Of a stretch of DNA of 64,000 nt, positions 10,887 through 24,058 are shown one piece after another. The stretch covers positions 86,612 through 150,611 of the forward strand of contig LNDT01000025.1 of NCBI GenBank assembly GCA_001464715.1, written 5' to 3'. This stretch comes from Bdellovibrionales bacterium Ga0074137 (lineage in GTDB: Bacteria > Bdellovibrionota > Bdellovibrionia > Bdellovibrionales > JAMPXM01). The notes under the pieces were generated by a model. The model had not been told where the DNA came from, did no database searches, and was given only the letters and a program-made list of their open reading frames with translations. The translations under genes were made by a program, and so were the position numbers. Positions within the stretch are counted from its first letter, which is position 1, and the number at the start of each line of letters is the position of its first letter.

Positions 10887-11076
10887 CGCGCCCCGTTAGA
10901 CAAAATAGTAATTGTTTACATATAAAACTTTCTTTGGATGAATAGTCGCTGACTCTTTTTTAGAGCGGAGGCCGTGCGTGGTGGGGAAGTTTCAGCTTTT
11001 TTTGGATGGTATTGTTACGAAGTTTGGCTTTGGCGATTGGTTTTGCGATTGTGCCGTTCGGCTAAAACGCGGCCAA

Positions 11077-14000
11077 ATGGCGATACTATATTCAGTTTCC
11101 TTTTTGCTTGCCGCAACTCCATCAATGGCTTGTCACATTGATCCAGCTCAGCAAGCCTCCCTGGATTTTGCGAGCGAATCATGTATTAACGATTATGCCG
11201 GAGTTTGGGAGGGAACTTATTATTACAACTACGGCACTCCGTACATGAACTACACCTGTACCAATGGTGGTGGTGTCGTCAGCTATTTCACCGGTCTTCA
11301 CTGCCCGACGCGGCCAGTAGAACCGCCAACAAGTATGGCTCCATCACCGACAACGGCGAACAGCTGCCCAATAAAAGGTTCTGTCATTCGTCCCGAATCT
11401 CGGGTGATCGAAGAGAACATTTCTATTGCCGGTACAGGGTACACTCTTAACTACTCAAGCGATCGAGCGTTTGGCTATTCGTCCAATCGTTACAAGCACG
11501 TAAATACTTATGTTGGCGAGTGTTTAGCCTTACGAACTCGTCATGAGACGGGCGGTGGATCTCCTCTTCCGCCCGAGTGCCAGAGTCGCGATGTGCGAAT
11601 CGAAGTCGCAGGAAGAGTCTTCAACCCGACGGTCGTCAACAGTAACCCAGCAGGTTATCAGTTCTTTTGGGATGGACTCGATGCCAGCGGAAACTTCACT
11701 TCTGGTTCGGGTCTTGCGAAATTCACCATCACCGACATTCCGGCCGATGTGAATGAAGTCCCAGCGACTTACTCTCAGCCCATCGGTTCGTTTTACTCAA
11801 TCATAATAGGTCTTGGCGGCTGGACGATTTCTCCGGTTCATTTTTATGATGTTCATCAAGCGACAGTCTTTCGCGGCGATGGATCGAAATTCAAAACCCT
11901 TTCGGCGGCTCTTTCTGGCGGAACCTACTCTGTTCCATCTTCGGATGCGTCTGAAGTCTATGTTTTCGATTCAACAGGTCGGCACCTGCAGACGAAGACA
12001 GGAATTAAGGGCACCGTTATTTTGACGATGACTTACGTGGCAGGTAAAATTTCGACGATCACAGACGCATTCTCAAACGTGACGACTGTCAATTACATCT
12101 CTAATAAACCAGTTTCGATTGTTGGACCGTTTGGTCATACGACAACTCTCGCGACCGACGCGGATGGGTACTTGACTGCGGTTACAAGCCCATCGGCCGA
12201 AACATTTAACATGACCTACTATTCAGGCGCAGCGAAAGGTCTTCTTCAGAATTTTCAAAAGCCCAAAGGTATTGTCACCAGCCTAAGCTACGACAGTTTC
12301 GGTCTTCTCACCTATGATTCGAGTTCCGCTGGAAGTTCTTTATCACTTTTGTCGACATTCCCGGACGTCGTTGAAGCGACCTCAGATCTGGGAATCAAGA
12401 CGGAGTACCTTAGGTCGATAACCTCACTTGGTGCTACGACGCTTACGAAAACAGGCCCCGGTGCAATGAATAGCACCTTCACTCATTCAGTAACACCTGA
12501 TGGTATTTTGCAGTACATACAAGGCACGGACAACATCGGCGTAACTCTTTACGACAACAAGACCGCAGATCCTCGCTTCCCATCCGTTTTCGAAACAAAC
12601 AATTTTACGCAGCAAACGTCCAGTTATCTTCGTAGTTTTGCCGTCACAAAGGCGGCGACGTTAAGCAATCCGGATGATCCCTTCAGCGTTGTCGACTTGA
12701 CTGAAACTACCGTCTTGAATTCTTCAAAGACAACGACGTCGGCGTACCTTTCTTCGACGTCGAAGTTCACGAGGACTTCGCCGGTGGGTAGAAAGAACTA
12801 TGTGACGGTCGACTCCTTTGAGCGTCCGATCTCGACGCAGTTTGCGACCTACGCACCGGTCACCGTTTCCTACGATACGCGCGGACGCGTGTCGACGGTC
12901 GCACAAGGCACCTCGAGAACTTCGACCTTCACATATGACTCCAGCGGAAACCTACAGTCGATCACGAATCCGTTAAGCCAAACGAAGACTTTCGGCTACG
13001 ACTCTTCTGGGCGAGTGACGAGCGAAACTTTTCCAGATTCACGGGTGATCAGCTACGCCTATGATCTGAATGGAAACTTAGCTAGTGTGACTCCGCCAGG
13101 GGGCCTTGCGCACTCGTTTGTTTCGAATGGTTTCGATCTCATTGGGAAATACACAAGTCCCGCAGTGAGTTTCTTTGGAGTGGAAGTCCCGGCCAAGAAA
13201 GTATCATCAAAACTGGCTACGATTTATAATTCAGCTATCCAGTGGGCGGCCGAATTTTTGCGGACATTTTTACCGGAAGCTTCGTCGAAAGTTCGAAGGC
13301 TTCTTGTAAACCGCGACACGGACTATTTTTACGACAATGATAGAAAGCTGACTTCCGTTGTCCGGCCTGATGGTGCCACCGCGAGCTTCACATATAGTGC
13401 GACGTCAGGGCGCCTCGATGGAATCGTTACGCCCCTTGGTAACTACGTAATCAACCAGAATTCTTACTATAGCTATATAGATTCAGTCGTTTCGCCAGAT
13501 GGGGTTACTCAGACCTTTTCGCATGACGGCCCGTTCTTGATGAGCGCGATAAATTCTGGTGCAACATCGGGATCGGTTTATTTCACTTACAATAACGAGT
13601 TCCAGTTAGCCTCCTCAAAAGTCAATACAGCCACGACACTAAATTATGTCTACGACAATGATGGTCTTGTGACGACGGCAGGGAATCAAACGATCACCCG
13701 AAGCACAACGACGGGTTTTCCCACCAAGACGACCTTGTCGACTGCGAACGAAAATTACACGTACTCGACGTCGTTCGGGGAACTCGCCTCCATCCAAGGA
13801 AAGTACGGAACAACCACAAATATTTATCAGTCAGTTTTAACAAGAGATGATCTGTCTCGGATTGTTCAGAAAGTTGAAACGGTCGGCGTTCTGGCTTCGA
13901 ATACATACGCATACACCTTCGACTCTTCGGGAAGATTGACGACCGTTCTCAAAAACAGTGCGCCTCATTCTGCATATGTCTATGACTCGAATTCAAATCG

Positions 14001-15054
14001 CACGTCAGTCACTCGAAACGGGACGACTTTGACAGCGACATTTGATGAGCAAGACCGAATCGTGACGTTTGGAACAAAGACCTACGCCCACAACGATGCG
14101 GGCGAGGTGCTGTCGATCACAGACACGTCAACCGCGCCTTCGTCGGTAACCACTTACACGTACGATGTCTTTGGAAACTTGAAGTCGGTCAGTCTTCCGA
14201 ACAGCACCGTAATTTCATATGTGCTGGATGGTCAGAATCGTCGTGTAGGGAAGAAAGTCGGCGTCACTCTTCAGAAACAATTCGTTTGGTTCGATCAGCT
14301 TCGCCCGGCCGCAGAATTGAACGGAACCGGCGCGATCGTTTCACAATTTGTTTATGGCATTAAAGGCAATGTCCCTGACTACATCATAAAAGGTTCAGTT
14401 CGCTACAAGCTAATGACCGATCACTTAGGAAGTGTCGTAGCCGTCGTTCACTCAACCAACGGAACAGTCGCCCAAAGAATCGAGTACGACGAATTCGGCC
14501 GCGTCCTCAGCGACACAAGCCCCGGCTTCCAACCGTTTGGTTTCGCTGGTGGGATTTATGACAGTGACACGGGGTTAGTGCTGTTCGGTGCCAGAACCTA
14601 CGATGCCGAAACGGGACGGTGGTTGAGTAAGGATCCGATTCTATTCGCCGGGGGCGATACGAACCTCTACGGGTACGTGATGAACGACCCAATAAATTTG
14701 GTAGATCCGAGCGGATTGAGCCAGAAAGAAGTAGATTTTGCGATGGGATGGATTCGGCGAAATCGACCGGACCTGGTCAAAGGTATTGGTGGGGTGAAAG
14801 CGACGGCGACGAATTTGCTGCCAAGCGGAACCACTGGTTTTACCCTACCGGGGCGCATACTGATCGACTCAGCTGCTTCTGATAATCAGAGTAATGCGAT
14901 TTATCTAGTAGCCCACGAACTGCAACACGCTCAAAGGGGAGTGTTGAATACAATACTTTTCCAAACTCAGGCGGAGCATGATTCAATCTATACAAACGCT
15001 TTTCGGGTCCAAGACCTTTATGATTCGCAGCAGTCGAATCCGAGTTGTCGATGA
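11077..15054 (+). CDS. Rhs/YD-repeat polymorphic toxin with a signal peptide and an HExxH (metallopeptidase-like) C-terminal toxin domain
   Basis: Many YD-type repeats (YDSSGNL, YAYDLNGNL, YTYDVFGNL). The Rhs core end is [43 protein letters not shown], followed by a ~112-aa tip containing VAHELQHA. The ATG at 11077 gives the signal-like MAILYSVSFLLAATPSMA; the ORF is open from GTG at 10978. Confidence 0.85.
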   Translation: MAILYSVSFLLAATPSMACHIDPAQQASLDFASESCINDYAGVWEGTYYYNYGTPYMNYTCTNGGGVVSYFTGLHCPTRPVEPPTSMAPSPTTANSCPIKGSVIRPESRVIEENISIAGTGYTLNYSSDRAFGYSSNRYKHVNTYVGECLALRTRHETGGGSPLPPECQSRDVRIEVAGRVFNPTVVNSNPAGYQFFWDGLDASGNFTSGSGLAKFTITDIPADVNEVPATYSQPIGSFYSIIIGLGGWTISPVHFYDVHQATVFRGDGSKFKTLSAALSGGTYSVPSSDASEVYVFDSTGRHLQTKTGIKGTVILTMTYVAGKISTITDAFSNVTTVNYISNKPVSIVGPFGHTTTLATDADGYLTAVTSPSAETFNMTYYSGAAKGLLQNFQKPKGIVTSLSYDSFGLLTYDSSSAGSSLSLLSTFPDVVEATSDLGIKTEYLRSITSLGATTLTKTGPGAMNSTFTHSVTPDGILQYIQGTDNIGVTLYDNKTADPRFPSVFETNNFTQQTSSYLRSFAVTKAATLSNPDDPFSVVDLTETTVLNSSKTTTSAYLSSTSKFTRTSPVGRKNYVTVDSFERPISTQFATYAPVTVSYDTRGRVSTVAQGTSRTSTFTYDSSGNLQSITNPLSQTKTFGYDSSGRVTSETFPDSRVISYAYDLNGNLASVTPPGGLAHSFVSNGFDLIGKYTSPAVSFFGVEVPAKKVSSKLATIYNSAIQWAAEFLRTFLPEASSKVRRLLVNRDTDYFYDNDRKLTSVVRPDGATASFTYSATSGRLDGIVTPLGNYVINQNSYYSYIDSVVSPDGVTQTFSHDGPFLMSAINSGATSGSVYFTYNNEFQLASSKVNTATTLNYVYDNDGLVTTAGNQTITRSTTTGFPTKTTLSTANENYTYSTSFGELASIQGKYGTTTNIYQSVLTRDDLSRIVQKVETVGVLASNTYAYTFDSSGRLTTVLKNSAPHSAYVYDSNSNRTSVTRNGTTLTATFDEQDRIVTFGTKTYAHNDAGEVLSITDTSTAPSSVTTYTYDVFGNLKSVSLPNSTVISYVLDGQNRRVGKKVGVTLQKQFVWFDQLRPAAELNGTGAIVSQFVYGIKGNVPDYIIKGSVRYKLMTDHLGSVVAVVHSTNGTVAQRIEYDEFGRVLSDTSPGFQPFGFAGGIYDSDTGLVLFGARTYDAETGRWLSKDPILFAGGDTNLYGYVMNDPINLVDPSGLSQKEVDFAMGWIRRNRPDLVKGIGGVKATATNLLPSGTTGFTLPGRILIDSAASDNQSNAIYLVAHELQHAQRGVLNTILFQTQAEHDSIYTNAFRVQDLYDSQQSNPSCR

Positions 15055-15368
15055 TGATGAACAAGATATTTGTATTCCAACGAATTGTGTTTCCAATCGT
15101 GATCCTGCTTTTCCTTAAGTCTATCGCTCCCGTGAAGTTGGCCATCGAGGGATTGATGAGAGCAGGATGTGTTGAGCAGTGCGAAAGCAGTCGGCAGCTG
15201 TTATTCTCAGCGGTGGATGCCTTCAAATGGATTGGCATTCTTAGTGCGCTATTTCTCATCTCTTGCGCTGTCATGGAGGTTGTCTCGAATCGTAAGGCGC
15301 TGGTCGCATGGCTAACTTTGGGACTCAATCTGATCGCGCTGATCGGTGCCGTAGTGTTGACTTGGTAG
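15051..15368 (+). CDS. small 3-TM membrane protein, candidate cognate immunity protein for the Rhs tip
   Basis: The ATG overlaps the Rhs stop (cgATGAtgatg). Three hydrophobic helices. Assigned from position only. Confidence 0.5.
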   Translation: MMMNKIFVFQRIVFPIVILLFLKSIAPVKLAIEGLMRAGCVEQCESSRQLLFSAVDAFKWIGILSALFLISCAVMEVVSNRKALVAWLTLGLNLIALIGAVVLTW

Positions 15369-15501
15369 CGTGCACTTTGGCGATTTAAGTTTTACTCGGG
15401 AAAAACGGACACGAGTTCAAAATTGATTGCCAGAATTGTCGACGTGGCCGGAATTTCAATAGTTGTTCACGCGCTCTAGACCGAGCTGAATTGAGGCAAA
15501 T

Positions 15502-15699
15502 ATGAAGCGGCTGAATATTTTTTTCGAGGTCGTGGTTGTGCTGGCCTGGGGCGCATTTGTGGGGATGGGGGCCTCCCATCTAACACCTAGCGAAGTCGTG
15601 TTTGAGATAGCGGGGGTAATCTCCGGTTTGTCTTTTGGTATCCTGATTGCGTGGGGCATTCGCTTTCTCTCGCTTTCGCTTAAAGCCCAGGGACGATAG
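15502..15699 (+). CDS. small 2-TM membrane protein (possible extra/orphan immunity gene)
   Basis: 65-aa ORF with two clear hydrophobic segments. No homology evidence. Confidence 0.3.
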   Translation: MKRLNIFFEVVVVLAWGAFVGMGASHLTPSEVVFEIAGVISGLSFGILIAWGIRFLSLSLKAQGR

Positions 15700-15952
15700 C
15701 GCCGCAATCTGTGCCAGGCGATTTTTCGATAACAGCTGCGGGTCTCAGGCCCGCCATTCTTTACTGTCGGCGATCGACAAGAGCATGATTAAATTTTGAA
15801 TACGAAATCCCAGACTTCATCGCACCTTTGGCGTCCCGTTGCATGTTCGCAACGAGTCTTGAGGCGGCGAAGACGCCTCCGCATGCGATAAAAGATGAAA
15901 GTGCCATTCAAACTGCGAGTTCCAAAAGTTTCCCCATTTTAATCCTATCTCC

Positions 15953-15976
15953 AATTTTAACGGCCGGTTCGCGGCC
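15953..15976 (+). repeat. left copy of an imperfect direct repeat (candidate att site)
   Basis: aattttaacggccggttcgcggcc. It matches 21810-21835 (aattttCGaacggccggAtcgcggcc) with one 2-nt indel and one mismatch. Weaker similarity continues for about 50 nt. Confidence 0.4.
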
Positions 15977-16028
15977 GACTTATTCCTAAAAATTTCCGAA
16001 AAGTCTCGAAATCTGCATTTTCTGACGA

Positions 16029-17063
16029 TCAATTCCCCGTCTCTGGTACCCCTGAAACTTCAAAAAATTCAGCTCTCGAAACTTTAAAACGGCCGTAAAG
16101 TTCTTCAGTCATTCGAACGTGCTGATGACCCATGATCTTTTGAAGTTCGTTGATATCGCGCCCAGCTTTCAGAAAGTTGACGGCGAATGAATAGCGAAGG
16201 TCGCGGTAGACCCAGTCTTGTTCAATCTTCAGCTGCCGCTTTAAGATGCGAAGCTCACGAACGAGACAGTGCTTATACAAAGGGCGTCCTTCCAGGTTCG
16301 TAAAAACGTATTCGCTCAACTGTTCGAGGACTTTAAGTGCAGCGACTAGATTTTCAGAAATCGGCAGGATGCGAGTCTGAATCTTCTCACCATCTCGAAG
16401 AACAACTCTTGCCGCGCCAAAATCGAGGTCTCGCCATTTGAGCTCTAGAATGTCATGAGTTTTTGCGGCCGTTTCACACACGAGAAGCAAAATTGGATAG
16501 AGGTAACCTGGGCTCAGTCGTTTAGCTCCTTCAAGGGCTTCTTCGATTTGCTTTGGTTTTACCCAAATGTGTTTTCGTTTGTAGATCTTGCTTCGGCCCA
16601 TCGTGATTTTTGATTGAGGAGAATCCCCAATAATTCCTCGCGACGTCATCCATTTAAAGAAGCCTTGCAGCTGATATTTGCGCGTCGCGAGACTGTGGCT
16701 GGTGTAGTCGTATTCAAGCTTCTGGCGCTGGTAGAAGCTTCGCATCCCAAGCTCATCAATTTGCGAAGGGCGATAAATCGCAAATTGATTTAAAAAATCC
16801 CGAATCAACTGGGGACTTCGAATAAGCGAAGCATCTGGCACTTCTTCAGCGTACAAACCAAGAAGCTCTTCGACCGAATATTCCTTTAATGGCCGACGCT
16901 GTTCTTTGATTGGCTTCCACATGCGAAAACGGTTGTAAGCTTCCGTCGCTTTCCACTCTTCTTTAAACGTCTCGGCGATGCGTTCTCGTTTTAAAGAGTT
17001 GAAATAGGAAACGACGAATTCTCCGTTCGGCAAAGGGTAGTAGCGAATGTCGATTGGCTTCAT
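16029..17063 (-). CDS. tyrosine recombinase family protein, divergent active site
   Basis: C-terminal RDLRYSFAVNFL ... GHQHVRMTEELYGRF (box II with His and Tyr). Aligned to its neighbour, box I reads ETAAKTHD instead of TGARRSE. 4-nt overlap with the upstream recombinase gene. Confidence 0.8.
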   Translation of the reverse strand: MKPIDIRYYPLPNGEFVVSYFNSLKRERIAETFKEEWKATEAYNRFRMWKPIKEQRRPLKEYSVEELLGLYAEEVPDASLIRSPQLIRDFLNQFAIYRPSQIDELGMRSFYQRQKLEYDYTSHSLATRKYQLQGFFKWMTSRGIIGDSPQSKITMGRSKIYKRKHIWVKPKQIEEALEGAKRLSPGYLYPILLLVCETAAKTHDILELKWRDLDFGAARVVLRDGEKIQTRILPISENLVAALKVLEQLSEYVFTNLEGRPLYKHCLVRELRILKRQLKIEQDWVYRDLRYSFAVNFLKAGRDINELQKIMGHQHVRMTEELYGRFKVSRAEFFEVSGVPETGN

Positions 17064-18100
17064 ATTATCTCCGTTTCATTTTTTTCATAAGGGCATGCGT
17101 TTTCGATATCTTGGGCACCGATCTGCCCGTAGGTATCAACGGTCACGTCGATACTTCGGTGACCTAAGATGGCTTGGAGCTCATACATGTTCCCCTTCTG
17201 CTTTAGGAAGTTGTACGCGAACGAGTGGCGAAGTGAGTGTGGTCCCCAATGCTTTCCGATTGGGAATTGCTTTCTGAATCGCCTGAGATGTTTTCCGATG
17301 ATGTGTCGGGGCACCATCTCGCCATTATGGTAAGGCACAACGTGTTCGTGGCTATGGCTTGCGAGGAACTCTTCGAGAAAGACTTTGAGGCTTTTCGTGA
17401 TTCGGATGGATCGGTCTTCACCGTTTTTGGTCCGCCGGAAATGCACAAGACCAGTTTCAAAATCGACGTCGTGTCTTTTGAGTTTTAAAACCTCGCTTCG
17501 GCGGGCACCTGTGTAGGCCGCAATAAATAGAATCGGATAAAGCGTCTTCGGACTAAAGACTCTTACGCCGTCGAGAACCTTCATCACTTCGTCCACAGAT
17601 AGAACAACTCGCGGGCGTCGTGGCGGCGGCTTCCTGGCGAATCGCACTTTCATAAGAGGCGAATCTGAAATTACGCCCTCGTCTTCGAGATGAATGAAGA
17701 AGCTATTGAGCTCGGACTTAATTGTGTTGAGCGTTCGATCCGAAAGATCATTCTCTTCCTTGATTTTCTTAAACCACAACGAGAGTTCGGTTTTTCCAAC
17801 CTGGTTAAGGGGCCGTTTACCAAACGACTGACAAAAAGATTCAAAATGCTTCTTTCGATTTCGCACTCGCGAATTCGGAAACTGCTCCAGATAAATCTTC
17901 ATGTATTGTTCAATCGGCGTTTGGTTAAGGCTCTGCGGCCCTTTGGTTTGAAACTTAAGCTCGATGTCACTTCGGTAGCGTTTCGCTTCTACTTTCGATT
18001 CGAACTTTGTTCGTTTCCGCTTCTGTGTTGTTGGATCTTTGTAGCAGACGACGTGATGGCCATCTTTAAGCTGATAGATTTTAACTTTAAGAGAATTCAT
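17060..18100 (-). CDS. tyrosine recombinase / phage-type integrase
   Basis: Canonical YTGARRSEVLKL, HSLRHSFAYNFL and LGHRSIDVTVDTYGQI motifs. The ATG at 18100 lies 2 nt after the upstream stop; the ORF is open to 18139. Confidence 0.85.
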   Translation of the reverse strand: MNSLKVKIYQLKDGHHVVCYKDPTTQKRKRTKFESKVEAKRYRSDIELKFQTKGPQSLNQTPIEQYMKIYLEQFPNSRVRNRKKHFESFCQSFGKRPLNQVGKTELSLWFKKIKEENDLSDRTLNTIKSELNSFFIHLEDEGVISDSPLMKVRFARKPPPRRPRVVLSVDEVMKVLDGVRVFSPKTLYPILFIAAYTGARRSEVLKLKRHDVDFETGLVHFRRTKNGEDRSIRITKSLKVFLEEFLASHSHEHVVPYHNGEMVPRHIIGKHLRRFRKQFPIGKHWGPHSLRHSFAYNFLKQKGNMYELQAILGHRSIDVTVDTYGQIGAQDIENACPYEKNETEII

Positions 18101-18102
18101 AT

Positions 18103-19347
18103 CTAGAAACTCCCTTTGGCAGACTTCGATTCGGTCCAAGCCTTTAGTTTTTGACGGTCGACCACGAACTTTTTCTTTAAGCCAACGTTCAATGACGGAA
18201 ACGTCGGATCCGTTTTGACGAGGCTATAGATCGTCCAAGTTGAAACTCTCATCATTTTTGCGACCTCCTTAATTGTGATGAATCCGTTATTAATTTCGGA
18301 TTCTTTATCGGCCGGCCTACAGTCCTCGAAATTCTCGAGCAACGGTTGACACGGCCGGGTCGTTTCTTTGACGGCCGTGTCAGCGAGCTCTGTTAGTTCA
18401 ATCGATCCAACGGTTGGTCCGCGATGCTTTGGGTACGGAATGTTCTGAAGCTCAGGATGCAGTGTCTTGAATTTCGCCAAGAGATTCTTTGTTTCTTTTT
18501 TGTCGAGGCCAGCGAAGGAAGCATATTTGTGTTTTGGTTCGACCATTCGCATTTTGCAAAGGGCCTTGTGGCTTTTCGCGTGGAGCTTGATGGCTTCCGC
18601 TGTTTTATCTGGAATCGCCGACCAATTGACGACGCGGTTTCCGTTACCATTGAATCCATCCCAATGGTGACGCCACTGGATTCCGAGTTCGCGACAATAT
18701 CTTTTGATCTGACTCGTTTGGCGAAACTGTCGGTCCGTAAACCAACCGAGGTCTGGGTAATTGGCATCGAAGTACTCGTACCTGGTTCCCGAGTTTTGCC
18801 CGAGGTAAATGAAGTTGCACGCTTGGTAGATCGTGCCGAGCTCTCTGGCTGCGACGTCACCGTAGGCGGTAAAAATGCGAAAGCCTGTGTTCTTCACCAT
18901 CCATCGAATTGAAAACATGATGAGTGCGGAAGCCAAATTCTTCGGCGACCACGAGATACATGCACCGCGACTAATGAGCTTTTCTAGGTTTCGGTCTTCT
19001 TCGCCCAATAGGTTCGAGAAACTGTTTGGCGTCGCCATGACGATGACCCCGGCTAACTGACCCCTGTAGGTCGCAATGAAGCGGTGGGTGGGTCTGTTGG
19101 GCATTTTGCCGAGCCATTCGTGACGCCGAATGAACTGAACGATCTCCATCCATCTTTGGAATTCAGTTTTCGGGACGTAAGAAAACTCGAAGTCGCCGAC
19201 TCGAAGCTTCTCGGCGTCCTCTTTCGTAAGTCCTGCGGCTTTTAAATCCTCTTCTAGGTTCTTGAGTCGGATCTCATACTGCCAGCAGTGACCAGCTGAA
19301 TAATCGTCTGTTGGACGAGAGACGGGTTGAGGAATAAGGTCTTCCAT
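18103..19347 (-). CDS. fusion protein: Mom-like GNAT-fold domain (N-terminal) plus Xis/AlpA-type HTH (C-terminal)
   Basis: The N-terminal half has HEWLGKMP, AGVIVMATP and RIFTAYGDVAARELGTIYQACNFIYLG. This resembles the Mom-family pattern SYAD..GH.G.IYQA.NW.Y.G. The C-terminus, ITIKEVAKMMRVSTWTIYSLVK...FVVDRQKLKAWT, is a typical excisionase-type HTH. It is the first gene of an operon with both recombinases. The CDS itself is confident; the domain call is motif-level. Confidence 0.45.
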   Translation of the reverse strand: MEDLIPQPVSRPTDDYSAGHCWQYEIRLKNLEEDLKAAGLTKEDAEKLRVGDFEFSYVPKTEFQRWMEIVQFIRRHEWLGKMPNRPTHRFIATYRGQLAGVIVMATPNSFSNLLGEEDRNLEKLISRGACISWSPKNLASALIMFSIRWMVKNTGFRIFTAYGDVAARELGTIYQACNFIYLGQNSGTRYEYFDANYPDLGWFTDRQFRQTSQIKRYCRELGIQWRHHWDGFNGNGNRVVNWSAIPDKTAEAIKLHAKSHKALCKMRMVEPKHKYASFAGLDKKETKNLLAKFKTLHPELQNIPYPKHRGPTVGSIELTELADTAVKETTRPCQPLLENFEDCRPADKESEINNGFITIKEVAKMMRVSTWTIYSLVKTDPTFPSLNVGLKKKFVVDRQKLKAWTESKSAKGSF

Positions 19348-19879
19348 CGGGATACCTCCAGAGTGAGTACGATATAGTACTCAGTTGAAGCTCGGCTCGG
19401 TCGCCAAGGTTCGTTGAGTGATTGAAACTCTTAGGAAATTTTGATTCTAAATTTTTTAAGGCGGTCGCCTAGGTGATGGGAAGGCGACGAGAAGGCGACG
19501 GGGTTGCGACTCTTGTTTTGTGACTAGTTGGCGACACGAGAATATCGAGTCGCTTACCTATTTGTATTGCAAGGCGTACCAACAAATCGACAAAAGTGAT
19601 TTAAGGCTTTGATGTGGCGTGGGAATTTTGATTTTCGCCGAAAAAGCGGAATGAAGAAACATTCAAAAGATTTGAATGTTTCCGGACGCTGATTCAGTGA
19701 TTTCAATATCTTATCCGTGTTCAAATAATTTGAAGGCGTTCACGGAATTTGAGCTTAAGTCTTTTGAATAACTCGAAAGAGCCCACACCGACCGCGTCGC
19801 ACAACTCTGACTGCTCGAATACTTGGACAAAGAAATAAACTGAACTGCGGCAGTATCTCCCTGCGACTAAAGAAGCTGT

Positions 19880-20551
19880 TCAATCTTTAATTCGAGGAAA
19901 ATTGCTGAGGGAGTCGACGTTGCGTTCACCGCTGAATGTGCGGTGCCGTCCCATGCCGCTAATATTCATTCGGTAACTGGGTGCTGTCGACCAAGGGTCG
20001 ACGCCTTTCGAAATCACCAACTGCCCCTCTCGATCGTAACAGGCGACAGTCTGGTTTTCTTGGAAAGGAAACTGCTGACCTTCGGCTGCAACAGGATTCT
20101 TAATCTTTGCTGAGTAGAAGTCCGATTCCCGATGTTCTAGGCCAACCTGGTCTGCGCGATTGCTGAATCCCTCGATATAAAGGTCGCATCCGCCCAAATA
20201 GATTTCTTGGTTATCGACAGAATCGTAAATCGTCGCGCCGATGCGATCATAAGTTTCGAAACGCCATCGAAAGTGCCAAAAACTGTGTCTACGTTCATCG
20301 CCGCGAGAAAGTTCGTATAGATTTCGCAAGCTATCTAGGCGGAGAATTTTTGTATGAGCGTGGATAGCTGCGGTCTGTTTTTGGATTGCTTCGGTATTGG
20401 CTTTTATCGCAACTGAAATCTCAGAACTTTCGTGATTAAGTTTGTTTGAGAACCAAATTGCGTACACCGAAATTCCGGTACCAACAACCGCCCCGATGAC
20501 TGTAGCCATATTGATCCAACCAATTTCCATATTCGCAAAGACACTGTACAT
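19880..20551 (-). CDS. hypothetical protein with an N-terminal TM helix and an unknown C-terminal domain
   Basis: TM segment ATVIGAVVGTGISVYAIWF, then a short coiled segment, then a ~150-aa domain with no motif I recognise. It lies 86 nt downstream of the AbiGi-like gene on the same strand. Confidence 0.55.
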   Translation of the reverse strand: MYSVFANMEIGWINMATVIGAVVGTGISVYAIWFSNKLNHESSEISVAIKANTEAIQKQTAAIHAHTKILRLDSLRNLYELSRGDERRHSFWHFRWRFETYDRIGATIYDSVDNQEIYLGGCDLYIEGFSNRADQVGLEHRESDFYSAKIKNPVAAEGQQFPFQENQTVACYDREGQLVISKGVDPWSTAPSYRMNISGMGRHRTFSGERNVDSLSNFPRIKD

Positions 20552-20637
20552 CCAGCTAGGTTCCCATATTCTACAAAATTGATGCGATAATTGAACTATG
20601 GCGACTGCGTTTTGTTAATTGATCGTGGTGCAGTTTT

Positions 20638-21447
20638 CTACAAAGCAGAGGCCAAATCTTGCCGACCTTTCGATTTAAAGTGGCCGATCAGAACGTCAGT
20701 GTCCCAGTCTGGATCCACAAACATAATCTTGTCAGCGCAAAGTTTTTCGAACTCAGGAATTCGCCCCTCCGGGCACAGACCGAATGCTACGTCGGAAAAT
20801 TCGAACTTCAAATCTCCGACGTGACGCCACTCACGTTCCCAGCGAAAGTCGATTTCGTAGGCCAGCGGGAATTTGGCTTTTCTGGCAGGGCCGAAGGATT
20901 CGAAGAGCGGAAGCAATGGTTTGCAAGCGGTGAGGAACTGCGGATCCGCAAGACGATCGACTGCGTTGTAGATGTCGTCTTTTCTTGAGTCGAAATAAAA
21001 AATCGGATGGCCGCCACGATCGCGAATGAAATCAGTGAAGAATGCGAGGCCAAACTTTTGATAACGATTGAGTTTATACGCGTACTGTGTGGAATTCTGC
21101 GTCGAGCGATAAAACGATCGAAGTTCGCGGAGCGGAGTCTCTGAAAAGCAGACGCATTTCAACCAATCAGGAGGGACGGACCGTCGAAGTTTACTATAGA
21201 TATTGATATCGAATTTAAAGTGACCGAACGGCGCTCTTCCTTCGAGCTTGGGGCCATTGGTCGCGTGAAGAATTTGTTTTAGAGATTTGTCGGCCACTAA
21301 ATTTAACGAGTTGCCGAACTGATAGTGTCCTGATTTAGGCAAGTACTTTTCGTAGTTCTCATAGCTGCCATTTTTTGTCAGATGAATCAGGAAGTTCGAC
21401 AGGTCGGCACGATCAGAGGAAAAGGATTCGCTTGGATTTCCGCCCAC
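20638..21447 (-). CDS. AbiGi-like abortive-infection family protein
   Basis: Motif series FLIHLTK, CVCFSETPL, YQKFGLAF..GGHPIFYFD and FRWEREWRHV parallels the AbiGi family (lfHfTk, CFcDiPL, YG.yGI.f, EREWR). GTG start. Confidence 0.55.
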   Translation of the reverse strand: MGGNPSESFSSDRADLSNFLIHLTKNGSYENYEKYLPKSGHYQFGNSLNLVADKSLKQILHATNGPKLEGRAPFGHFKFDINIYSKLRRSVPPDWLKCVCFSETPLRELRSFYRSTQNSTQYAYKLNRYQKFGLAFFTDFIRDRGGHPIFYFDSRKDDIYNAVDRLADPQFLTACKPLLPLFESFGPARKAKFPLAYEIDFRWEREWRHVGDLKFEFSDVAFGLCPEGRIPEFEKLCADKIMFVDPDWDTDVLIGHFKSKGRQDLASAL

Positions 21448-21503
21448 TTAAAAGCTCGCCTTTCCGTTGATTTTGGCACATAGATCGCATACTTAGTAAG
21501 GAG

Positions 21504-21800
21504 ATGAATAATTCAACGAAGCTTCAAATTTTCACCTTCAGCGACCGTTTTAATTGGTCATTTCTAGATGTTCAAACTGAAGCGTTCAATGCGGCACTTC
21601 GTCGAGCAGAAATCATGGGTTGGTCCGATATTCGCCTCGTGCCAGTAAGCCTCACTCCGAAAATTCAGAACGACGTCCGGAATTATGAATTTGAAATTTG
21701 GGGCGCCGGTGAAGCGGTTCTCGAATCATCGCAAGAATCCGAGTCGGCATTGTCGCCGGTCGAAACTTTCCGTAACGTTGCTCGAGACACCGAACTTTAA
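21504..21800 (+). CDS. hypothetical 98-aa protein
   Basis: ATG ORF divergent from the AbiGi-like gene, with an acidic C-terminus. No motif recognised. Confidence 0.4.
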   Translation: MNNSTKLQIFTFSDRFNWSFLDVQTEAFNAALRRAEIMGWSDIRLVPVSLTPKIQNDVRNYEFEIWGAGEAVLESSQESESALSPVETFRNVARDTEL

Positions 21801-21809
21801 ATCAGTCAA

Positions 21810-21835
21810 AATTTTCGAACGGCCGGATCGCGGCC
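21810..21835 (+). repeat. right copy of an imperfect direct repeat (candidate att site)
   Basis: See 15953-15976. It contains the same ggccg-N5-cggcc hairpin. Confidence 0.4.
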
Positions 21836-21949
21836 AGAACTTTCACAAAATTCTCGATATTCACAAAATTCGTTTTACGATACGTCGATAGCTTCCGATC
21901 CAATCGCCATGATTTCCTAAGTAGCGCCAAGGCGCAGCCTCTGGAGTGA

Positions 21950-22459
21950 TTGTGCACTTATGGCCGTATCAGACCTTACGATGCGGAAACCGGAAGATGG
22001 CTCTCGAAGGACCCCATTTTATTCGCAGGGGGAGACACAAATCTGTATGGGTACGTCCTCGCGGACCCCGTCAATTTGATTGACCCTAGTGGGCTTGCCT
22101 CGTTCCAGGAGAATCTGGCGTATCGACAGAATGCAAACAGTCGAGTGGCTGACCAAGTAACACGTATGGCGACCGGATTTGCGATTGGAAGTTCATTCGC
22201 CAGAAATATGCGGCCGCTAGGTCTCGGTGTCGGATTGTTCGAAGCCTATCGCTATGGTTTTAATATTCCGCTTTTGGGCGTAAGAGGGACCTTACTCGGG
22301 CTCGTAGCGAACTCGGCGGCCCAATCGGCCTTCATATTCGGAGCATTTACGGCTGGCGCTTGGGCCGGTGACTACATTGGGGCGGCGATTGACACTTACG
22401 TCGACAACAACGGGGGCCAATGTAATGCTTTGAGTGGGGCCGGGTTCGGTTCTCATTAG
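21950..22459 (+). CDS. orphan Rhs C-terminal module: Rhs core-end remnant plus an alternative Gly/Ala-rich (glycine-zipper) toxin tip
   Basis: [41 protein letters not shown] matches the end of the main Rhs core. It is followed by a hydrophobic tip with GAWAGDYIG (GxxxGxxxG). There is an in-frame stop immediately upstream, and a TTG start preceded by GGAG. Confidence 0.7.
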
Positions 22460-22467
22460 GAGGGCGA

Positions 22468-22830
22468 TTGGGCATCGTATATGATAGCGAGCATCAGAAA
22501 CGAGAGACATTCATTTTCAAAAATGGCGACTACCGAGGTGTAATAGCTTTTTTTGCTCTCGCTCCGGTTGCGGTAGTCAGCATTTGGTTTGCCTATCATT
22601 ACCGAAGTGGTGTGGGCGGCATGTTAGCTATAGGATGTGTCGGCTTCATGATTTGGGCAGTGAGCGGAAAATGCCAAATCTGCGGACGACGGTATCTTTT
22701 AGGCTATCTAAATGGTCATTTTGGTAGCGACTGGTTTCATGAAATTATGCATTCGAAAATTTGTTTGAATCCGAATTGTCCTAGTCGTCACAGTTCCACC
22801 TCTCAAAAGGCGGCAGGTGATATTGGGTAG
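22468..22830 (+). CDS. membrane protein with a C-terminal Cys4 zinc-ribbon-like motif, candidate immunity protein for the orphan tip
   Basis: GGAGG lies 4 nt before the TTG start, directly after the orphan toxin stop. Two TM helices. CQICGRR ... CLNPNCPS motif. Confidence 0.45.
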   Translation: MGIVYDSEHQKRETFIFKNGDYRGVIAFFALAPVAVVSIWFAYHYRSGVGGMLAIGCVGFMIWAVSGKCQICGRRYLLGYLNGHFGSDWFHEIMHSKICLNPNCPSRHSSTSQKAAGDIG

Positions 22831-22896
22831 CAGAAAAAGTCGTTCGCGGCTGAAGCTGCGAACGACGAACCTTCGTGACACCCAATTGAGGTAGAT

Positions 22897-23994
22897 ATGG
22901 CCGACGAGTATAAAGTCAGAAGTACGTCGAATGTTTCTGCTGCGGTCGAGGACCGTGAGCTATCATGCTCGACTACAACCCGTCGAATTCTGAGACCAGA
23001 ATTAGTAGACAATCCTAAGAATGCCGACGCCTGTGTCAAAATCTCCATTGTTCATCAAAGGAAGAAGCCGAAGGATGGTTGGGAAGATGTTGAAACTGAA
23101 TCTTTGAATTCGCTTAAGGCCGGTGAGATTAGAAAGCTGAACTTGGATACCGCAGAGACATTGTCTCTTTTCACCGAGCTGAAAAACTTATTCGCGATCA
23201 AGCAAGAAAAAGGCGTCCCTTACGGTGAACGAGACATTGTCGTCGGATACGAGGGGGAAATTATTAAAGCGGACCCCAAAAGGGCGAAGGTCATTCAAGA
23301 GCTGTTGAATCAAGGACACTCCGAGCAAGTTTGGACGGAGTTGGTCAAGCATAAGCCTGACCTGGCAAATAAGCTATGCCTCTTACGAATGCATCAGAAC
23401 AGAGTAGAAGCACTGAAAGAGTTCGAGGCCGGGATGAAAGAAGAAAAGGCGGAAGCCTTCTGGCAGGATTTTTTTGAGCGCAATACATGGATATTTGGTT
23501 TTGGTCTCAACTACAGATTCTTACGACAAGTGCAGAGTCAGCCGTCATACGGAGGAACAAACGTTTCTGGAAGTGGAGCGCAGAGAGGTGACTTTCTCGC
23601 AGCGACAGAGGCAGAGGTCCGATTTACCGTTCTTGTAGAAGTAAAAAAATCCAACACAGCACTGCTTGGTCCGGAGTATCGCAACGGGGCGTTTCCTCCT
23701 AGTCAGGAGTTGGCTGGGGGCGTTGCTCAAGTGCAGACTAACTGCCGAAAGTGGGAAACCGAAGGTTCGCAGTCTGACGAAAACCGCGAAATCTTAGGTG
23801 CCGATAATATCAACAGTGTTCAGCCCAAAGGCATCTTGATTATCGGGAATACGAATCAGCTCAATTCCTCTGCCAAGAAGTCTTCGTTTGAGATTTTTCG
23901 ACGGAATTTGGCGAATCCAGAAGTCATCACTTTTGATGAGTTGTATGAGCGGGCTAAGTACTTTGTCGAACATCCGAAAGACGAAATTGAATAA
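22897..23994 (+). CDS. sduA: Shedu-type defence nuclease (DUF4263 / SduA-like) with an uncharacterised N-terminal domain
   Basis: FWQDFFERNTWIFGFGLNY; PD-(D/E)xK-like RGDFLAA...VLVEVKKS; AQVQ; ILIIGNTNQL; EVITFDELYERA. This order of motifs is typical of DUF4263. Confidence 0.7.
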   Translation: MADEYKVRSTSNVSAAVEDRELSCSTTTRRILRPELVDNPKNADACVKISIVHQRKKPKDGWEDVETESLNSLKAGEIRKLNLDTAETLSLFTELKNLFAIKQEKGVPYGERDIVVGYEGEIIKADPKRAKVIQELLNQGHSEQVWTELVKHKPDLANKLCLLRMHQNRVEALKEFEAGMKEEKAEAFWQDFFERNTWIFGFGLNYRFLRQVQSQPSYGGTNVSGSGAQRGDFLAATEAEVRFTVLVEVKKSNTALLGPEYRNGAFPPSQELAGGVAQVQTNCRKWETEGSQSDENREILGADNINSVQPKGILIIGNTNQLNSSAKKSSFEIFRRNLANPEVITFDELYERAKYFVEHPKDEIE

Positions 23995-24058
23995 CGGCTT
24001 ACTGAGTCGCCGTGCCAAGGGTAAGAGGCTTTATTCTTCAGGGCTAATAGTGAAGAAG

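What the first reader, a model, noticed from the sequence alone, without database searches (positions are those of the whole stretch)
15953..21835. Candidate 5.9 kb integrative element bounded by imperfect direct repeats, inserted inside the rhs locus
AATTTTAACGGCCGGTTCGCGGCC (15953-15976) recurs in the same orientation at 21810-21835 as AATTTTcgAACGGCCGGaTCGCGGCC. The differences are one 2-nt indel and one mismatch. Weaker similarity continues for about 50 nt (tctcgaaat / tctcgatat, acgat).

Both copies lie in intergenic DNA. The left copy is about 50 nt beyond the stop of the terminal recombinase gene, and the right copy is just after the last cargo gene.

The interval holds exactly the recombinase operon plus cargo. 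It separates the main Rhs/immunity pair from its orphan cassette.

I found no tRNA or known att target, so the insertion site type is unknown.
Basis: seen in the sequence. Interest (0 to 1): 0.65.

Follow-up and report, generated by a model that had tools for sequence, protein, structure and literature searches.

The report
Recombinase element inside Rhs toxin array
The repeats are real and mark the ends of a 5.9-kb recombinase-carrying element sitting at a short palindromic site that also precedes spare Rhs toxin-tip cassettes in many predatory-bacteria genomes, which offers a candidate for the long-missing recombinase of Rhs toxin loci.

Summary
15953-15976 and 21810-21835 are a 24/26-nt direct repeat whose core is the palindrome GGCC-N7-GGCC. 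That motif occurs exactly twice in the 64-kb window.

- The interval carries an operon of a Mom-like/Xis-HTH protein, a canonical tyrosine recombinase (YR1) and a degenerate one (YR2), plus three cargo genes.
- I collected 28 non-redundant related trio loci, mostly Bdellovibrionota MAGs. In 18 the same palindrome lies within 200 nt after the last recombinase.
- Eleven elements (6-10 kb, with differing cargo) also have a second copy beyond the cargo. The two copies co-vary within an element (permutation p about 5e-4).
- Homology blocks between arrays break at the palindrome.

New here:
- 27 of 28 trios lie in rhs arrays.
- The cargo-side copy is always about 130-160 nt upstream of an orphan Rhs core-end.
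- The same palindrome plus an A-tract arm precedes orphan cassettes that have no trio beside them. All 22 such cassettes begin core homology at the same codon.

The best reading is an integrative element that uses the orphan-cassette leader palindrome as its att site. An integron-like system that also moves the tip cassettes is not excluded.

No circular or empty-site junction was seen.

The parts
15953..15976 (+). Left repeat (attL-like). The core palindrome GGCCGGTTCGCGGCC is at 15962-15976, 52 nt beyond the YR2 stop.
   Evidence: A palindrome at the same position in 18 of 28 related trio loci.
15977..16028 (+). Element-side arm: phased A-tract/AAAATT repeats with a TCTCGAAAT box at 16004. 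Candidate accessory or arm sites.
   Evidence: Conserved to the right of every palindrome, in both recombinase-proximal and cassette-leader copies.
16029..17063 (-). YR2, 344 aa. A degenerate tyrosine recombinase: Arg-I is Lys, the HxxR His is Arg, and Arg-II, His-III and Tyr are kept.
   Evidence: Pfam PF00589 3e-21. PDB alignment. Lys at Arg-I in 16 of 18 orthologues.
17060..18139 (-). YR1, 359 aa. A canonical tyrosine recombinase with the full R-K-HxxR-H-Y set. Its stop overlaps the YR2 start (ATGA).
   Evidence: Pfam PF00589 1e-21. XerA/XerC-like hits far below NCBIfam cut-offs. PDB alignment. Catalytic residues kept in 18 of 18.
18103..19347 (-). First operon gene, 414 aa. A Mom-like domain (about residues 15-310) fused to a C-terminal excisionase-type HTH (about 350-410). 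Candidate directionality or site-binding factor.
   Evidence: PF25680 4e-11 and HTH_17 3e-5. TIGR01764 excisionase 3e-4. PHROG 1384 Mom-like and PHROG 66 excisionase. About 2000 homologues.
19348..19760 (-). Operon leader and regulatory region. Shared with L001 at high identity to about 19585 and weakly to 19679. Operator-like palindromes at 19657-19681 and 19719-19736 (TTCAAA-N3-TTTGAA).
19880..20551 (-). Cargo gene 1, 223 aa, with an N-terminal TM segment. No family assigned.
   Evidence: No Pfam, NCBIfam or PHROG hit. Not shared with L001.
20638..21447 (-). Cargo gene 2, 269 aa, with a weak AbiGi-like hit.
   Evidence: PF10899 E=0.009, below cut-off. 69% identical to a cargo gene of the second L007 element.
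21504..21800 (+). Cargo gene 3, 98 aa, divergent from the 269-aa gene.
   Evidence: 51% identical to the L007 98-aa gene in the same paired arrangement.
21810..21835 (+). Right repeat (attR-like). The core palindrome GGCCGGATCGCGGCC is at 21821-21835.
   Evidence: It lies 156 nt (start to start) upstream of the orphan core-end, as in the other palindrome-linked cassettes.
21836..21949 (+). Leader of the orphan cassette: A-tract arm, TCTCGATAT box at 21852 and a promoter-like site at 21842-21869. This is the chromosome-side arm of the target site.
21950..22830 (+). Orphan Rhs-CT (21950-22459; core homology from 21961) and its immunity candidate (22468-22830). This is the cassette whose leader is the insertion target.
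   Evidence: TIGR03696 Rhs_assc_core 8e-14. Its homologues lie on the other side of the element in L001. The 5' boundary of core homology is fixed.
15761..15907 (-). Small trio-linked ORF just outside the left repeat. 48 aa here, with the N-terminus lost to an in-frame stop. Single TM plus an AMKSGISYxKFN motif.
   Evidence: Homologues directly after the palindrome in L001, L006, L007, L204, L207 and L209. In-frame stop shown.
10978..15368 (+). Main Rhs toxin (10978-15054) and its overlapping immunity candidate (15045-15368). This is the array head to the left of the element.
   Evidence: RHS_repeat and TEN_YD-shell hits. Core-end query used.

Best explanation
Window 15962-21835 is a 5.9-kb integrative element. 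Its integration module is a three-gene operon: a Mom-like/Xis-HTH protein, YR1 and YR2.

The recombination site is a 15-nt palindrome. Two GGCC(R) half-sites flank a central region of about 7 nt, followed on one side by a roughly 45-nt A-tract arm. I infer that YR1 does the catalysis. YR2 (Arg-I replaced by Lys, the HxxR histidine lost) would act as a structural or half-active partner on the second half-site, as in a XerC/XerD-type pair. The HTH tail of the first protein would bind the arm and set directionality.

The element is integrated at the equivalent site in the leader of an orphan Rhs-CT/immunity cassette. One copy of the site therefore lies at each end, in direct orientation, which would permit excision as a circle.

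Shown: the repeats; their positional conservation; the co-variation of the two ends; homology breakpoints at the palindrome; variable cargo; the near-obligate rhs context; and the catalytic-residue patterns.

Inferred: that these recombinases act on these sites; where the crossover falls; the roles of YR2 and the HTH; and present-day mobility.
For: (1) Repeat significance and uniqueness in the window.
(2) The same two-site layout in relatives with different cargo: L001 (189/6871), L006 (1276/10902), L007 element 1 (4660/13360), L008, L014 (2768/12255), L020, L029/L030, L153, L204 (3284/13429) and L205 (4544/13435).
(3) The two ends co-vary. They are identical 15-mers in L006, L007 element 1 and L014. 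Mean distance within an element is 1.6 against 3.9 between elements; permutation p about 5e-4. In L008 and L014 the element's pair differs from the other array sites in the same locus.
(4) 35 of 46 strict palindromes in 453 kb lie at the two canonical positions. None occurs in stand-alone-Mom loci.
(5) Window/L001 88% identity starts 28 nt left of the palindrome (15934). Leader blocks shared between arrays stop 12-19 nt past the palindrome centre, and one cargo block starts 21 nt from it.
(6) YR1 is fully canonical and YR2 is consistently degenerate. The HTH is excisionase-type.
(7) Cargo in relatives includes Replic_Relax and FtsK/SpoIIIE-type genes and defence systems, as is typical of integrative or mobilizable islands.
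(8) Tandem elements are separated by a single cassette (L007, L209/L210), and a decayed copy exists (L207).
Against: - No circular junction or empty site was seen. The only runs holding this DNA are low-depth unitig sets with no joints.
- The window's two palindromes differ at one position of the central region (T/A), which in most tyrosine-recombinase systems lowers recombination.
- A small ORF that tracks the trio lies outside the repeat-bounded interval.
- The cargo half is not co-inherited with the trio.
- The same site precedes cassettes with no trio beside them, so two copies flanking the trio might simply reflect the array's own periodic structure.
- 10 of 28 trio loci lack a strict palindrome within 200 nt after the last recombinase.
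- The genome-wide frequency of the motif could not be measured.
Confidence: 0.62

Rival explanations
1. Integron-like toxin-cassette system. The palindrome is the recombination site of every unit in the array, not only of the trio element. Each orphan cassette (palindrome, leader, last ~40 core codons, tip, immunity) would be a discrete unit that the trio recombinases can excise as a circle and re-insert at any palindrome. The retained 120-nt core-end would then allow RecA-dependent fusion to the main rhs gene. On this reading the trio plus cargo is one more unit, and it supplies the machinery.
For: - The palindrome plus A-tract arm precedes orphan cassettes that are not next to a trio, at a fixed 132-172 nt (arms).
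- All 22 palindrome-linked cassettes start core homology at query residues 107-121, 20 of them at 116-121. Core-ends without a palindrome extend variably upstream.
- Leader homology between different genera stops at the palindrome while the tips differ.
- The window's orphan cassette has its homologue on the opposite side of the element in L001.
- All sites in an array share one orientation.
- Jackson et al. [quoted passage not shown]
- rAID-1 is a precedent for recombinase-linked arrays.
Against: - No identical cassette was found in two places bounded palindrome to palindrome.
- Leader conservation could instead reflect expression signals: a promoter-like site and in-frame start codons.
- In L008 and L014 the element's own pair of sites differs from the neighbouring cassette sites, which suggests specificity for its own ends.
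- No circles were observed.
Confidence: 0.28
2. A larger unit enters by recombination at the Rhs core-end (C-terminal displacement). A circle would carry core-end, new tip, immunity, small ORF, palindrome, trio, cargo, palindrome and leader, and would cross over with the resident rhs core-end. The two palindromes would then serve only for later removal of trio plus cargo.
For: It explains three things: why the small ORF stays with the trio although it lies outside the repeats; why palindrome plus leader sits at a fixed distance before each displaced tip; and why the element's two palindromes match each other rather than the other array sites. In the window, L204 and probably L006 the trio directly follows a full-length or long Rhs plus immunity.
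Against: - The tip and immunity to the left of the trio are unrelated in the window, L001 and L006 although the trios are 68-88% identical.
- Window/L001 identity drops sharply at the palindrome, not at the core-end.
Confidence: 0.1
3. The palindromes are expression signals of the array (terminator of the preceding unit, promoter or operator of the next). The trio would lie between two of them by chance or by a different insertion mechanism with other ends.
For: The left copy scores as a weak terminator-like hairpin on the + strand, and a promoter-like site follows the right copy. The hairpins are short, at -6 to -9 kcal/mol. The sites occur periodically along arrays.
Against: - The right copy is not terminator-like, and such sites are not enriched in the region (14 found against 8.8 +/- 3.8).
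- A signal role does not explain a palindrome 30-190 nt after the last recombinase in 18 of 28 loci, whatever follows it.
- It does not explain end-to-end co-variation or homology breakpoints at the palindrome.
Confidence: 0.06

Closest known systems
rAID-1 (recombinase-associated acquired interbacterial defence) clusters of Bacteroidales (Ross et al. 2019, bioRxiv 10.1101/471110; PMC12247911)
   Same: A tyrosine recombinase is physically linked to an array of interbacterial-conflict genes with repeated, conserved intergenic motifs 'reminiscent of integrons'. The mechanism of cassette gain is unknown there too.
   Different: rAID-1 has one XerD-like recombinase at the array head and co-oriented orphan immunity genes in low-GC Bacteroidales arrays. 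Here there is a three-gene module (Mom-like/Xis, canonical YR, degenerate YR), usually antiparallel to the cassettes and itself flanked by the sites. The cassettes keep toxin tips with a fixed 40-codon Rhs core-end. The hosts are Bdellovibrionota. Homology to the rAID recombinase was not tested.
Integrons (IntI, attI, attC cassettes)
   Same: The logic is similar: discrete cassettes, each with one imperfect-palindrome site, all in one orientation, next to a tyrosine recombinase. Only one catalytically competent partner is needed if a single strand exchange is used.
   Different: The recombinases are not IntI (TIGR02249 scores 78 bits against a cut-off of 265). The site is a 15-nt palindrome plus a one-sided A-tract arm, not a 57-141-nt attC. 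No attI/Pc arrangement is present. The cassettes appear to carry their own leader and start codon.
Gamma-Mobile-Trio (GMT) islands (bioRxiv 10.1101/2023.03.28.534373)
   Same: A three-gene mobility module at one end of an island. Cargo is rich in defence and antibacterial toxin genes. Insertion is at a short inverted-repeat site, which is then found flanking the island. The island-specific spacer matters.
   Different: The proteins are unrelated (recomb_GmtY 22 bits against a cut-off of 340). GMT has one recombinase (GmtY) plus GmtZ and GmtX. GMT target sites are diverse and are not tied to rhs arrays.
XerC/XerD-dif and Xer-exploiting elements (IMEX)
   Same: Two paralogous tyrosine recombinases acting, by inference, on a short palindromic core with a 6-8-nt central region. 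The one-sided accessory sequences recall cer/psi. A single active partner recalls XerC-only integration of filamentous phages.
   Different: The recombinases are element-encoded and are not Xer orthologues (97 bits against 335 for XerC). The target is not dif.
Tn554-type, RIT and BIM multi-recombinase elements (Van Houdt et al. 2012, PMC3414803)
   Same: Adjacent, overlapping tyrosine-recombinase genes form one mobility module together with a third small or unrelated protein.
   Different: RIT has three recombinases. BIM has one recombinase plus an unknown protein. Tn554 has a long TnpA, TnpB and TnpC; from my own knowledge it lacks terminal repeats and target duplication. None is linked to rhs arrays or to a Mom-like/Xis fusion.
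Rhs C-terminal displacement and orphan arrays (Jackson et al. 2009, PMC2935791; Koskiniemi et al. 2014, PMC3967940; Steele et al. 2017, PMC5727410)
   Same: A main rhs gene with immunity, followed by orphan tips that keep a piece of the core. Rhs-linked integrase-like genes have been noted in bee-gut bacteria.
   Different: In those systems orphans are explained by homologous recombination. [quoted passage not shown] Here a defined recombinase module and a defined site co-occur with the array, and the orphans have a fixed 5' boundary.

Membership tests
Tyrosine-recombinase integrative element (genomic island / IME) | Encodes a tyrosine recombinase with the R-K-HxxR-H/W-Y catalytic set | tested here: met
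   YR1 has all six residues, conserved in 18 of 18 orthologues. YR2 is degenerate.
Tyrosine-recombinase integrative element (genomic island / IME) | Directly repeated att core at both ends, with the same layout in independent relatives | tested here: met
   Found in the window and in 10 further elements with different cargo. The two ends co-vary, p about 5e-4.
Tyrosine-recombinase integrative element (genomic island / IME) | Excisionase / directionality factor | tested here: inconclusive
   The C-terminal HTH_17 scores 24.5 bits against a cut-off of 27. TIGR01764 scores 20.9 against 28.8. PHROG 66 gives 3.8e-7. The domain type fits, but function is untested.
Tyrosine-recombinase integrative element (genomic island / IME) | Observed empty site and/or circular excised form | tested here: inconclusive
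   Contigs of 4 runs were laid on 13500-24000 and showed no joints, but these are only 2-5x unitigs. The candidate empty site L207/L208 proved to be a decayed element.
Integron | IntI-type integrase | tested here: not met
   TIGR02249 scores 78.5 bits (YR1) and 40.8 bits (YR2) against a cut-off of 265. NF011946 scores 54 against 435.
Integron | attC sites (57-141-nt imperfect inverted repeats) at the 3' end of each cassette | tested here: not met
   The site is a 15-nt palindrome plus a one-sided A-tract arm at the 5' side of each cassette.
rAID-1 | XerD-like recombinase more than 44% identical to BF9343_RS08045 at the head of the array | not tested
   The reference sequence was not fetched. 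The phylum and gene order differ.
rAID-1 | Array of two or more co-oriented short conflict genes with conserved intergenic motifs | tested here: met
   Orphan tip/immunity cassettes, each preceded by the palindrome plus arm, in one orientation.
GMT island | GmtY, GmtZ and GmtX in tandem | tested here: not met
   recomb_GmtY NF040693 scores 22 bits against a cut-off of 340, for YR1 only.
RIT element | Three adjacent tyrosine recombinases (RitA, RitB, RitC) | tested here: not met
   The window has two recombinases plus a non-recombinase first gene. A few relatives have a third recombinase (L124, L206).
XerC/XerD | Orthology to XerC or XerD | tested here: not met
   TIGR02224 scores 97 against 335 and TIGR02225 scores 89 against 330 for YR1. 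YR2 scores lower.
Rhs orphan array | Full-length Rhs with immunity, followed by orphan tips retaining the core-end | tested here: met
   RHS_repeat/YD-shell hits in 10978-15054. Rhs_assc_core hit in 21950-22459.

The most novel reading that the evidence does not exclude
Rhs toxin tips in these bacteria are genuine recombination cassettes. Each orphan would be a discrete module (GGCC-N7-GGCC palindrome, A-tract arm and leader, the last ~40 core codons, tip, immunity). The Mom-like/Xis-YR1-YR2 trio could excise it as a circle and insert it at any other palindrome, and it could then be fused to the expressed rhs gene through the retained core-end. That would be an integron-like toxin-cassette system with its own heteromeric recombinase. 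[quoted passage not shown] (2009) said the episomal-circle model lacked.
Probability: 0.28. Interest if true: 0.88.

Novelty: new variant of a known kind. Interest (0 to 1): 0.7.

Why it matters
How rhs loci acquire new toxin tips has been open since the C-terminal displacement model. Homologous recombination explains switching among resident tips, but not the arrival of new ones. The integron-like alternative was set aside because no recombinase was known to accompany rhs (PMC2935791).

This locus and its roughly 28 relatives put three things in one place: a defined recombinase module, a defined 15-nt site with an accessory arm, and orphan cassettes with a fixed boundary. That makes the question testable with a simple two-site plasmid assay.

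Independently of that, the trio defines an undescribed family of small integrative elements in Bdellovibrionota. They carry defence systems (SIR2-HerA, a ubiquitin-like Bil-type set, AbiE, an AbiGi-like gene) and transfer-related genes. They also pair one canonical with one degenerate tyrosine recombinase and fuse a phage-type Mom-like enzyme to an Xis-type HTH.

Tried and rejected
- Exact-protein look-up of YR1 to find the same element elsewhere: not on record.
- Excision or empty-site junctions in public runs: 7 runs hold the DNA and 4 were laid. Only low-depth unitigs are kept and no joints appeared. This is uninformative rather than negative.
- Empty site via homologues of the small flanking ORF: L207/L208 lacked a called trio, but they contain a YR2 3' remnant. 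They are a decayed element, not an empty site.
- Metagenome scan with the Mom/HTH alignment: swamped by stand-alone phage-type Mom-like genes. Only 5 useful loci came back.
- tRNA target: none in the window.
- Known RNA family at the repeats: none.
- Plain terminator explanation: only the left copy qualifies weakly.
- A second recombination site at the cargo/trio breakpoint (about 19585-19680): none found, only operator-like palindromes.
- A possible extra GGCCGT half-site at the leader/core junction: rejected, because it is the Gly-Arg codons of the degenerate core homology.
- Plasmid carriage of the trio: no match. Phage records hold only the Mom-like domain.

Full report
**The observation**

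The two sequences are exactly as reported. Left: AATTTTAACGGCCGGTTCGCGGCC at 15953-15976. Right: AATTTTCGAACGGCCGGATCGCGGCC at 21810-21835. They are on the same strand and differ by one mismatch and one 2-nt indel.

- A local alignment of the two neighbourhoods scores 36, against 18.6 +/- 2.5 for random pairs of window segments.
- The 18-nt core, allowing up to three mismatches, occurs nowhere else in the 64 kb.
- The core is a palindrome, GGCC-N7-GGCC (15962-15976 and 21821-21835). In its strict form it also occurs only at these two places (0.49 expected).
- About 28 nt to the right of each copy lies a second shared box: TCTCGAAAT at 16004 and TCTCGATAT at 21852.
- There is no tRNA in the window and no Rfam match in the interval.

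**What lies between the repeats**

On the minus strand there are three overlapping genes.

- A 414-aa protein (18103-19347) with a Mom-like domain and a C-terminal excisionase-type HTH.
- YR1 (17060-18139), a tyrosine recombinase with the full R-K-HxxR-H-Y set.
- YR2 (16029-17063), a paralogue in which the first Arg is Lys and the HxxR histidine is Arg.

This asymmetry is a family trait. YR1 is canonical in 18 of 18 orthologues. YR2 has Lys at Arg-I in 16 of 18 and has lost the histidine, while mostly keeping Arg-II, His-III and Tyr.

Beyond a roughly 400-nt regulatory leader come three genes of unknown function: 223 aa, 269 aa with a sub-threshold AbiGi hit, and 98 aa.

To the left is a full-length Rhs toxin with its immunity gene (10978-15368). 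To the right are an orphan Rhs tip with immunity (21950-22830) and a Shedu nuclease.

**Comparative evidence that the repeats are element ends**

The Mom/HTH protein has about 2000 homologues. I collected 28 non-redundant loci with the complete trio from assemblies and metagenomes, mostly Bdellovibrionota MAGs.

- The closest relative (L001/L002, 94% protein identity) matches the window at 88% DNA identity only across 15934-19679. That block starts 28 nt left of the palindrome and ends in the operon leader. The cargo is unrelated.
- In 18 of the 28 loci a strict GGCC-N7-GGCC lies 30-190 nt after the last recombinase.
- In eleven elements a second copy lies beyond the cargo, giving units of 6-10 kb. 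Cargo includes M78/HTH genes, HEPN, SIR2-HerA, a ubiquitin-like ThiF/BubE set, AbiE, Replic_Relax and FtsK/SpoIIIE-type genes.
- The two copies of one element match each other. They are identical 15-mers in L006, L007 element 1 and L014. The mean distance is 1.6 within an element and 3.9 between elements (permutation p about 5e-4). In L008 and L014 they differ from the other array sites in the same locus.
- Of 46 strict palindromes in 453 kb of trio loci, 35 lie at two canonical positions. The remaining 11 are about what chance gives (roughly 7 expected at 50% G+C, my estimate). There are none in loci that carry only a stand-alone Mom-like gene; the six 'control' hits are all in the truncated trio contigs L013, L029 and L033.

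The motif is not a common REP or terminator, and relatives do not show different boundaries.

In 27 of 28 loci the trio lies in an rhs array, usually antiparallel to it. The cargo-side palindrome always sits 132-172 nt (start to start) upstream of an orphan Rhs core-end; in the window the distance is 156 nt.

The same palindrome, at the same distance, precedes orphan cassettes that have no trio beside them, for example two in L011 and three in L008.

To the right of every palindrome there is about 45 nt of phased A-tract/AAAATT repeats. This holds for both recombinase-proximal and cassette-leader copies. All sites in an array therefore point the same way, which would give excision rather than inversion.

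Homology blocks shared between arrays of different genera stop 12-19 nt past the palindrome centre. A shared cargo block starts 21 nt from one.

All 22 palindrome-linked cassettes start their Rhs-core homology at the same place: query residues 107-121, with 20 at 116-121, just before YD(A/P)ETGRW. Core-ends without a palindrome extend variably upstream. Many leaders also carry an in-frame start codon a few codons earlier. In the window there is a promoter-like site at 21842-21869.

The orphan cassettes are therefore discrete modules, not ragged leftovers of homologous recombination.

**Mechanism**

The best-supported reading is that 15962-21835 is an integrative element whose att core is the palindrome. 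The evidence for this is the repeats, their positional conservation, the co-variation of the two ends, the breakpoints, the variable cargo and the recombinase features.

The following points are inferred, not shown:
- Two GGCC(R) half-sites around a central region of about 7 nt would bind a YR1/YR2 pair.
- YR1 would catalyse, and YR2 would be a structural or half-active partner, as in Xer-type systems where one partner can suffice.
- The Xis-type HTH would act on the A-tract arm to control direction.

The window's two cores differ at one central position (T/A), which may reduce present-day excision. All three genes are intact here. In L001/L002, by contrast, YR1 is split.

**Rivals and unexplained points**

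*Integron-like reading (about 0.28).* The same recombinases may also move the Rhs cassettes themselves. This fits the fixed cassette boundary and the presence of sites at every cassette. It also fits the different position of homologous cassettes relative to the element in the window and L001. However, I found no identical cassette at two places bounded palindrome to palindrome.

*Larger unit entering at the core-end (about 0.1).* This would explain a small trio-linked ORF: 15761-15907 in the window, and directly after the palindrome in L001, L006, L007, L204, L207 and L209. That ORF lies just outside the repeats. Against this reading, the tips next to related trios are unrelated, and identity drops at the palindrome.

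*Pure expression-signal role for the palindromes (about 0.06).* This fits the weak terminator-like score of the left copy and the promoter-like site. It does not explain the co-variation or the breakpoints.

The seven runs that hold this DNA are kept only as 2-5x unitigs and show no joints. A candidate empty site (L207/L208) proved to be a decayed element, with a YR2 3' remnant, the palindrome and the small ORF next to the Mla operon.

**Comparison with known systems**

I found no paper describing this trio or a palindromic site in rhs arrays.

- Closest in logic are the rAID-1 clusters of Bacteroidales: a XerD-like recombinase, orphan immunity arrays and integron-like intergenic repeats, with the mechanism still unknown.
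- Integrons are also close in logic, but the recombinases fail the IntI models and the site is not an attC.
- GMT islands share the idea of a three-gene mobility module, defence and toxin cargo, and insertion at a short inverted repeat that ends up flanking the island. The proteins are unrelated.
- RIT, BIM and Tn554-type modules share only the tandem-recombinase theme.
[quoted passage not shown] Steele et al. noted Rhs-linked integrase-like genes without sites or mechanism.

**Verdict**

I rate it a new variant of a known kind: a tyrosine-recombinase integrative element with an unusual heteromeric module and a defined target in Rhs orphan-cassette leaders. A credible, more novel reading is that the whole array is a recombinase-driven cassette system.

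Interest is 0.70, and confidence in the main reading is 0.62.

Noticed in passing
window 18103-19347; loci L043-L122, L125-L202: The Mom-like domain alone (about 300 aa, no HTH) is very common in viral and marine metagenome contigs: more than 450 viral hits at 47-56% identity. The fusion to an Xis-type HTH followed by two recombinases is confined to the rhs-array elements. So the trio's first gene looks like a captured phage DNA-modification enzyme.
   Followed up: partly
window 15761-15907 (-): A small single-TM ORF (relatives read ME[RK]...GG...AMKSGISYxKFN) starts with its own Shine-Dalgarno 20-45 nt beyond the recombinase-proximal palindrome in seven loci. In the window its first ~10 codons are cut off by an in-frame stop. 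It tracks the trio, not the neighbouring toxin cassette, yet lies outside the repeat-bounded unit.
   Followed up: partly
L207 6100-6800 and L208 5500-6200: A decayed element. Only the last ~110 codons of YR2, the palindrome (GGCCTCGAACCGGCC) and the small ORF remain. They abut an MlaE/MlaD operon at the far end of an rhs array that also holds a serine resolvase and another integrase.
   Followed up: yes
L007 (4660-21209); L209/L210: Two trio elements in tandem, separated by exactly one orphan Rhs tip/immunity cassette. In L007 the second element carries homologues of the window's 98-aa and 269-aa cargo pair.
   Followed up: partly
L124 2988-6103; L206 11224-14111: Some relatives have three recombinase genes after the Mom/HTH gene instead of two.
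   Followed up: no
window 19657-19681 and 19719-19736: Two operator-like palindromes (AAACATTCAAA-N3-TTTGAATGTTT and TTCAAA-N3-TTTGAA) upstream of the Mom/HTH gene. They are conserved in L001 although the surrounding sequence has diverged.
   Followed up: no
window 21842-21869 and the leaders of L014, L020, L029, L205: Orphan-cassette leaders contain a promoter-like site. In many there is also an in-frame ATG 10-14 codons before the retained core-end (e.g. MSVAVALKIPDSH|YNP...), so orphans may be expressed on their own.
   Followed up: partly
L001 4747-5787, L002 4737-5777: In the closest relative, YR1 is called as two pieces (264 or 300 aa plus 42 aa). It is probably a frameshifted pseudogene. 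The window copy is intact.
   Followed up: no
window 15054, 16555, 21011-21012: Contigs from two drinking-water runs (X3, X4) leave the window sequence at these points for 255 nt of unrelated sequence. This suggests related strains with a mosaic structure: a different sequence after the Rhs stop, inside YR2 and inside the 269-aa cargo gene.
   Followed up: no
window 15502-15699 (+): A 65-aa two-TM ORF between the immunity gene and the small ORF. It is homologous (30%, E 2e-7) to an ORF at the same relative position in L012 (3580-3795). It overlaps the 83-aa minus-strand ORF 15456-15707, which is probably spurious.
   Followed up: no
L028 5444-5530 and 6501-6590: The arm next to the last recombinase and the leader of the next cassette are nearly identical for about 85 nt, including a GCGGCCC-N7-GGGCCGC hairpin. 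This looks like an arm that has been copied or exchanged between the two classes of site.
   Followed up: no
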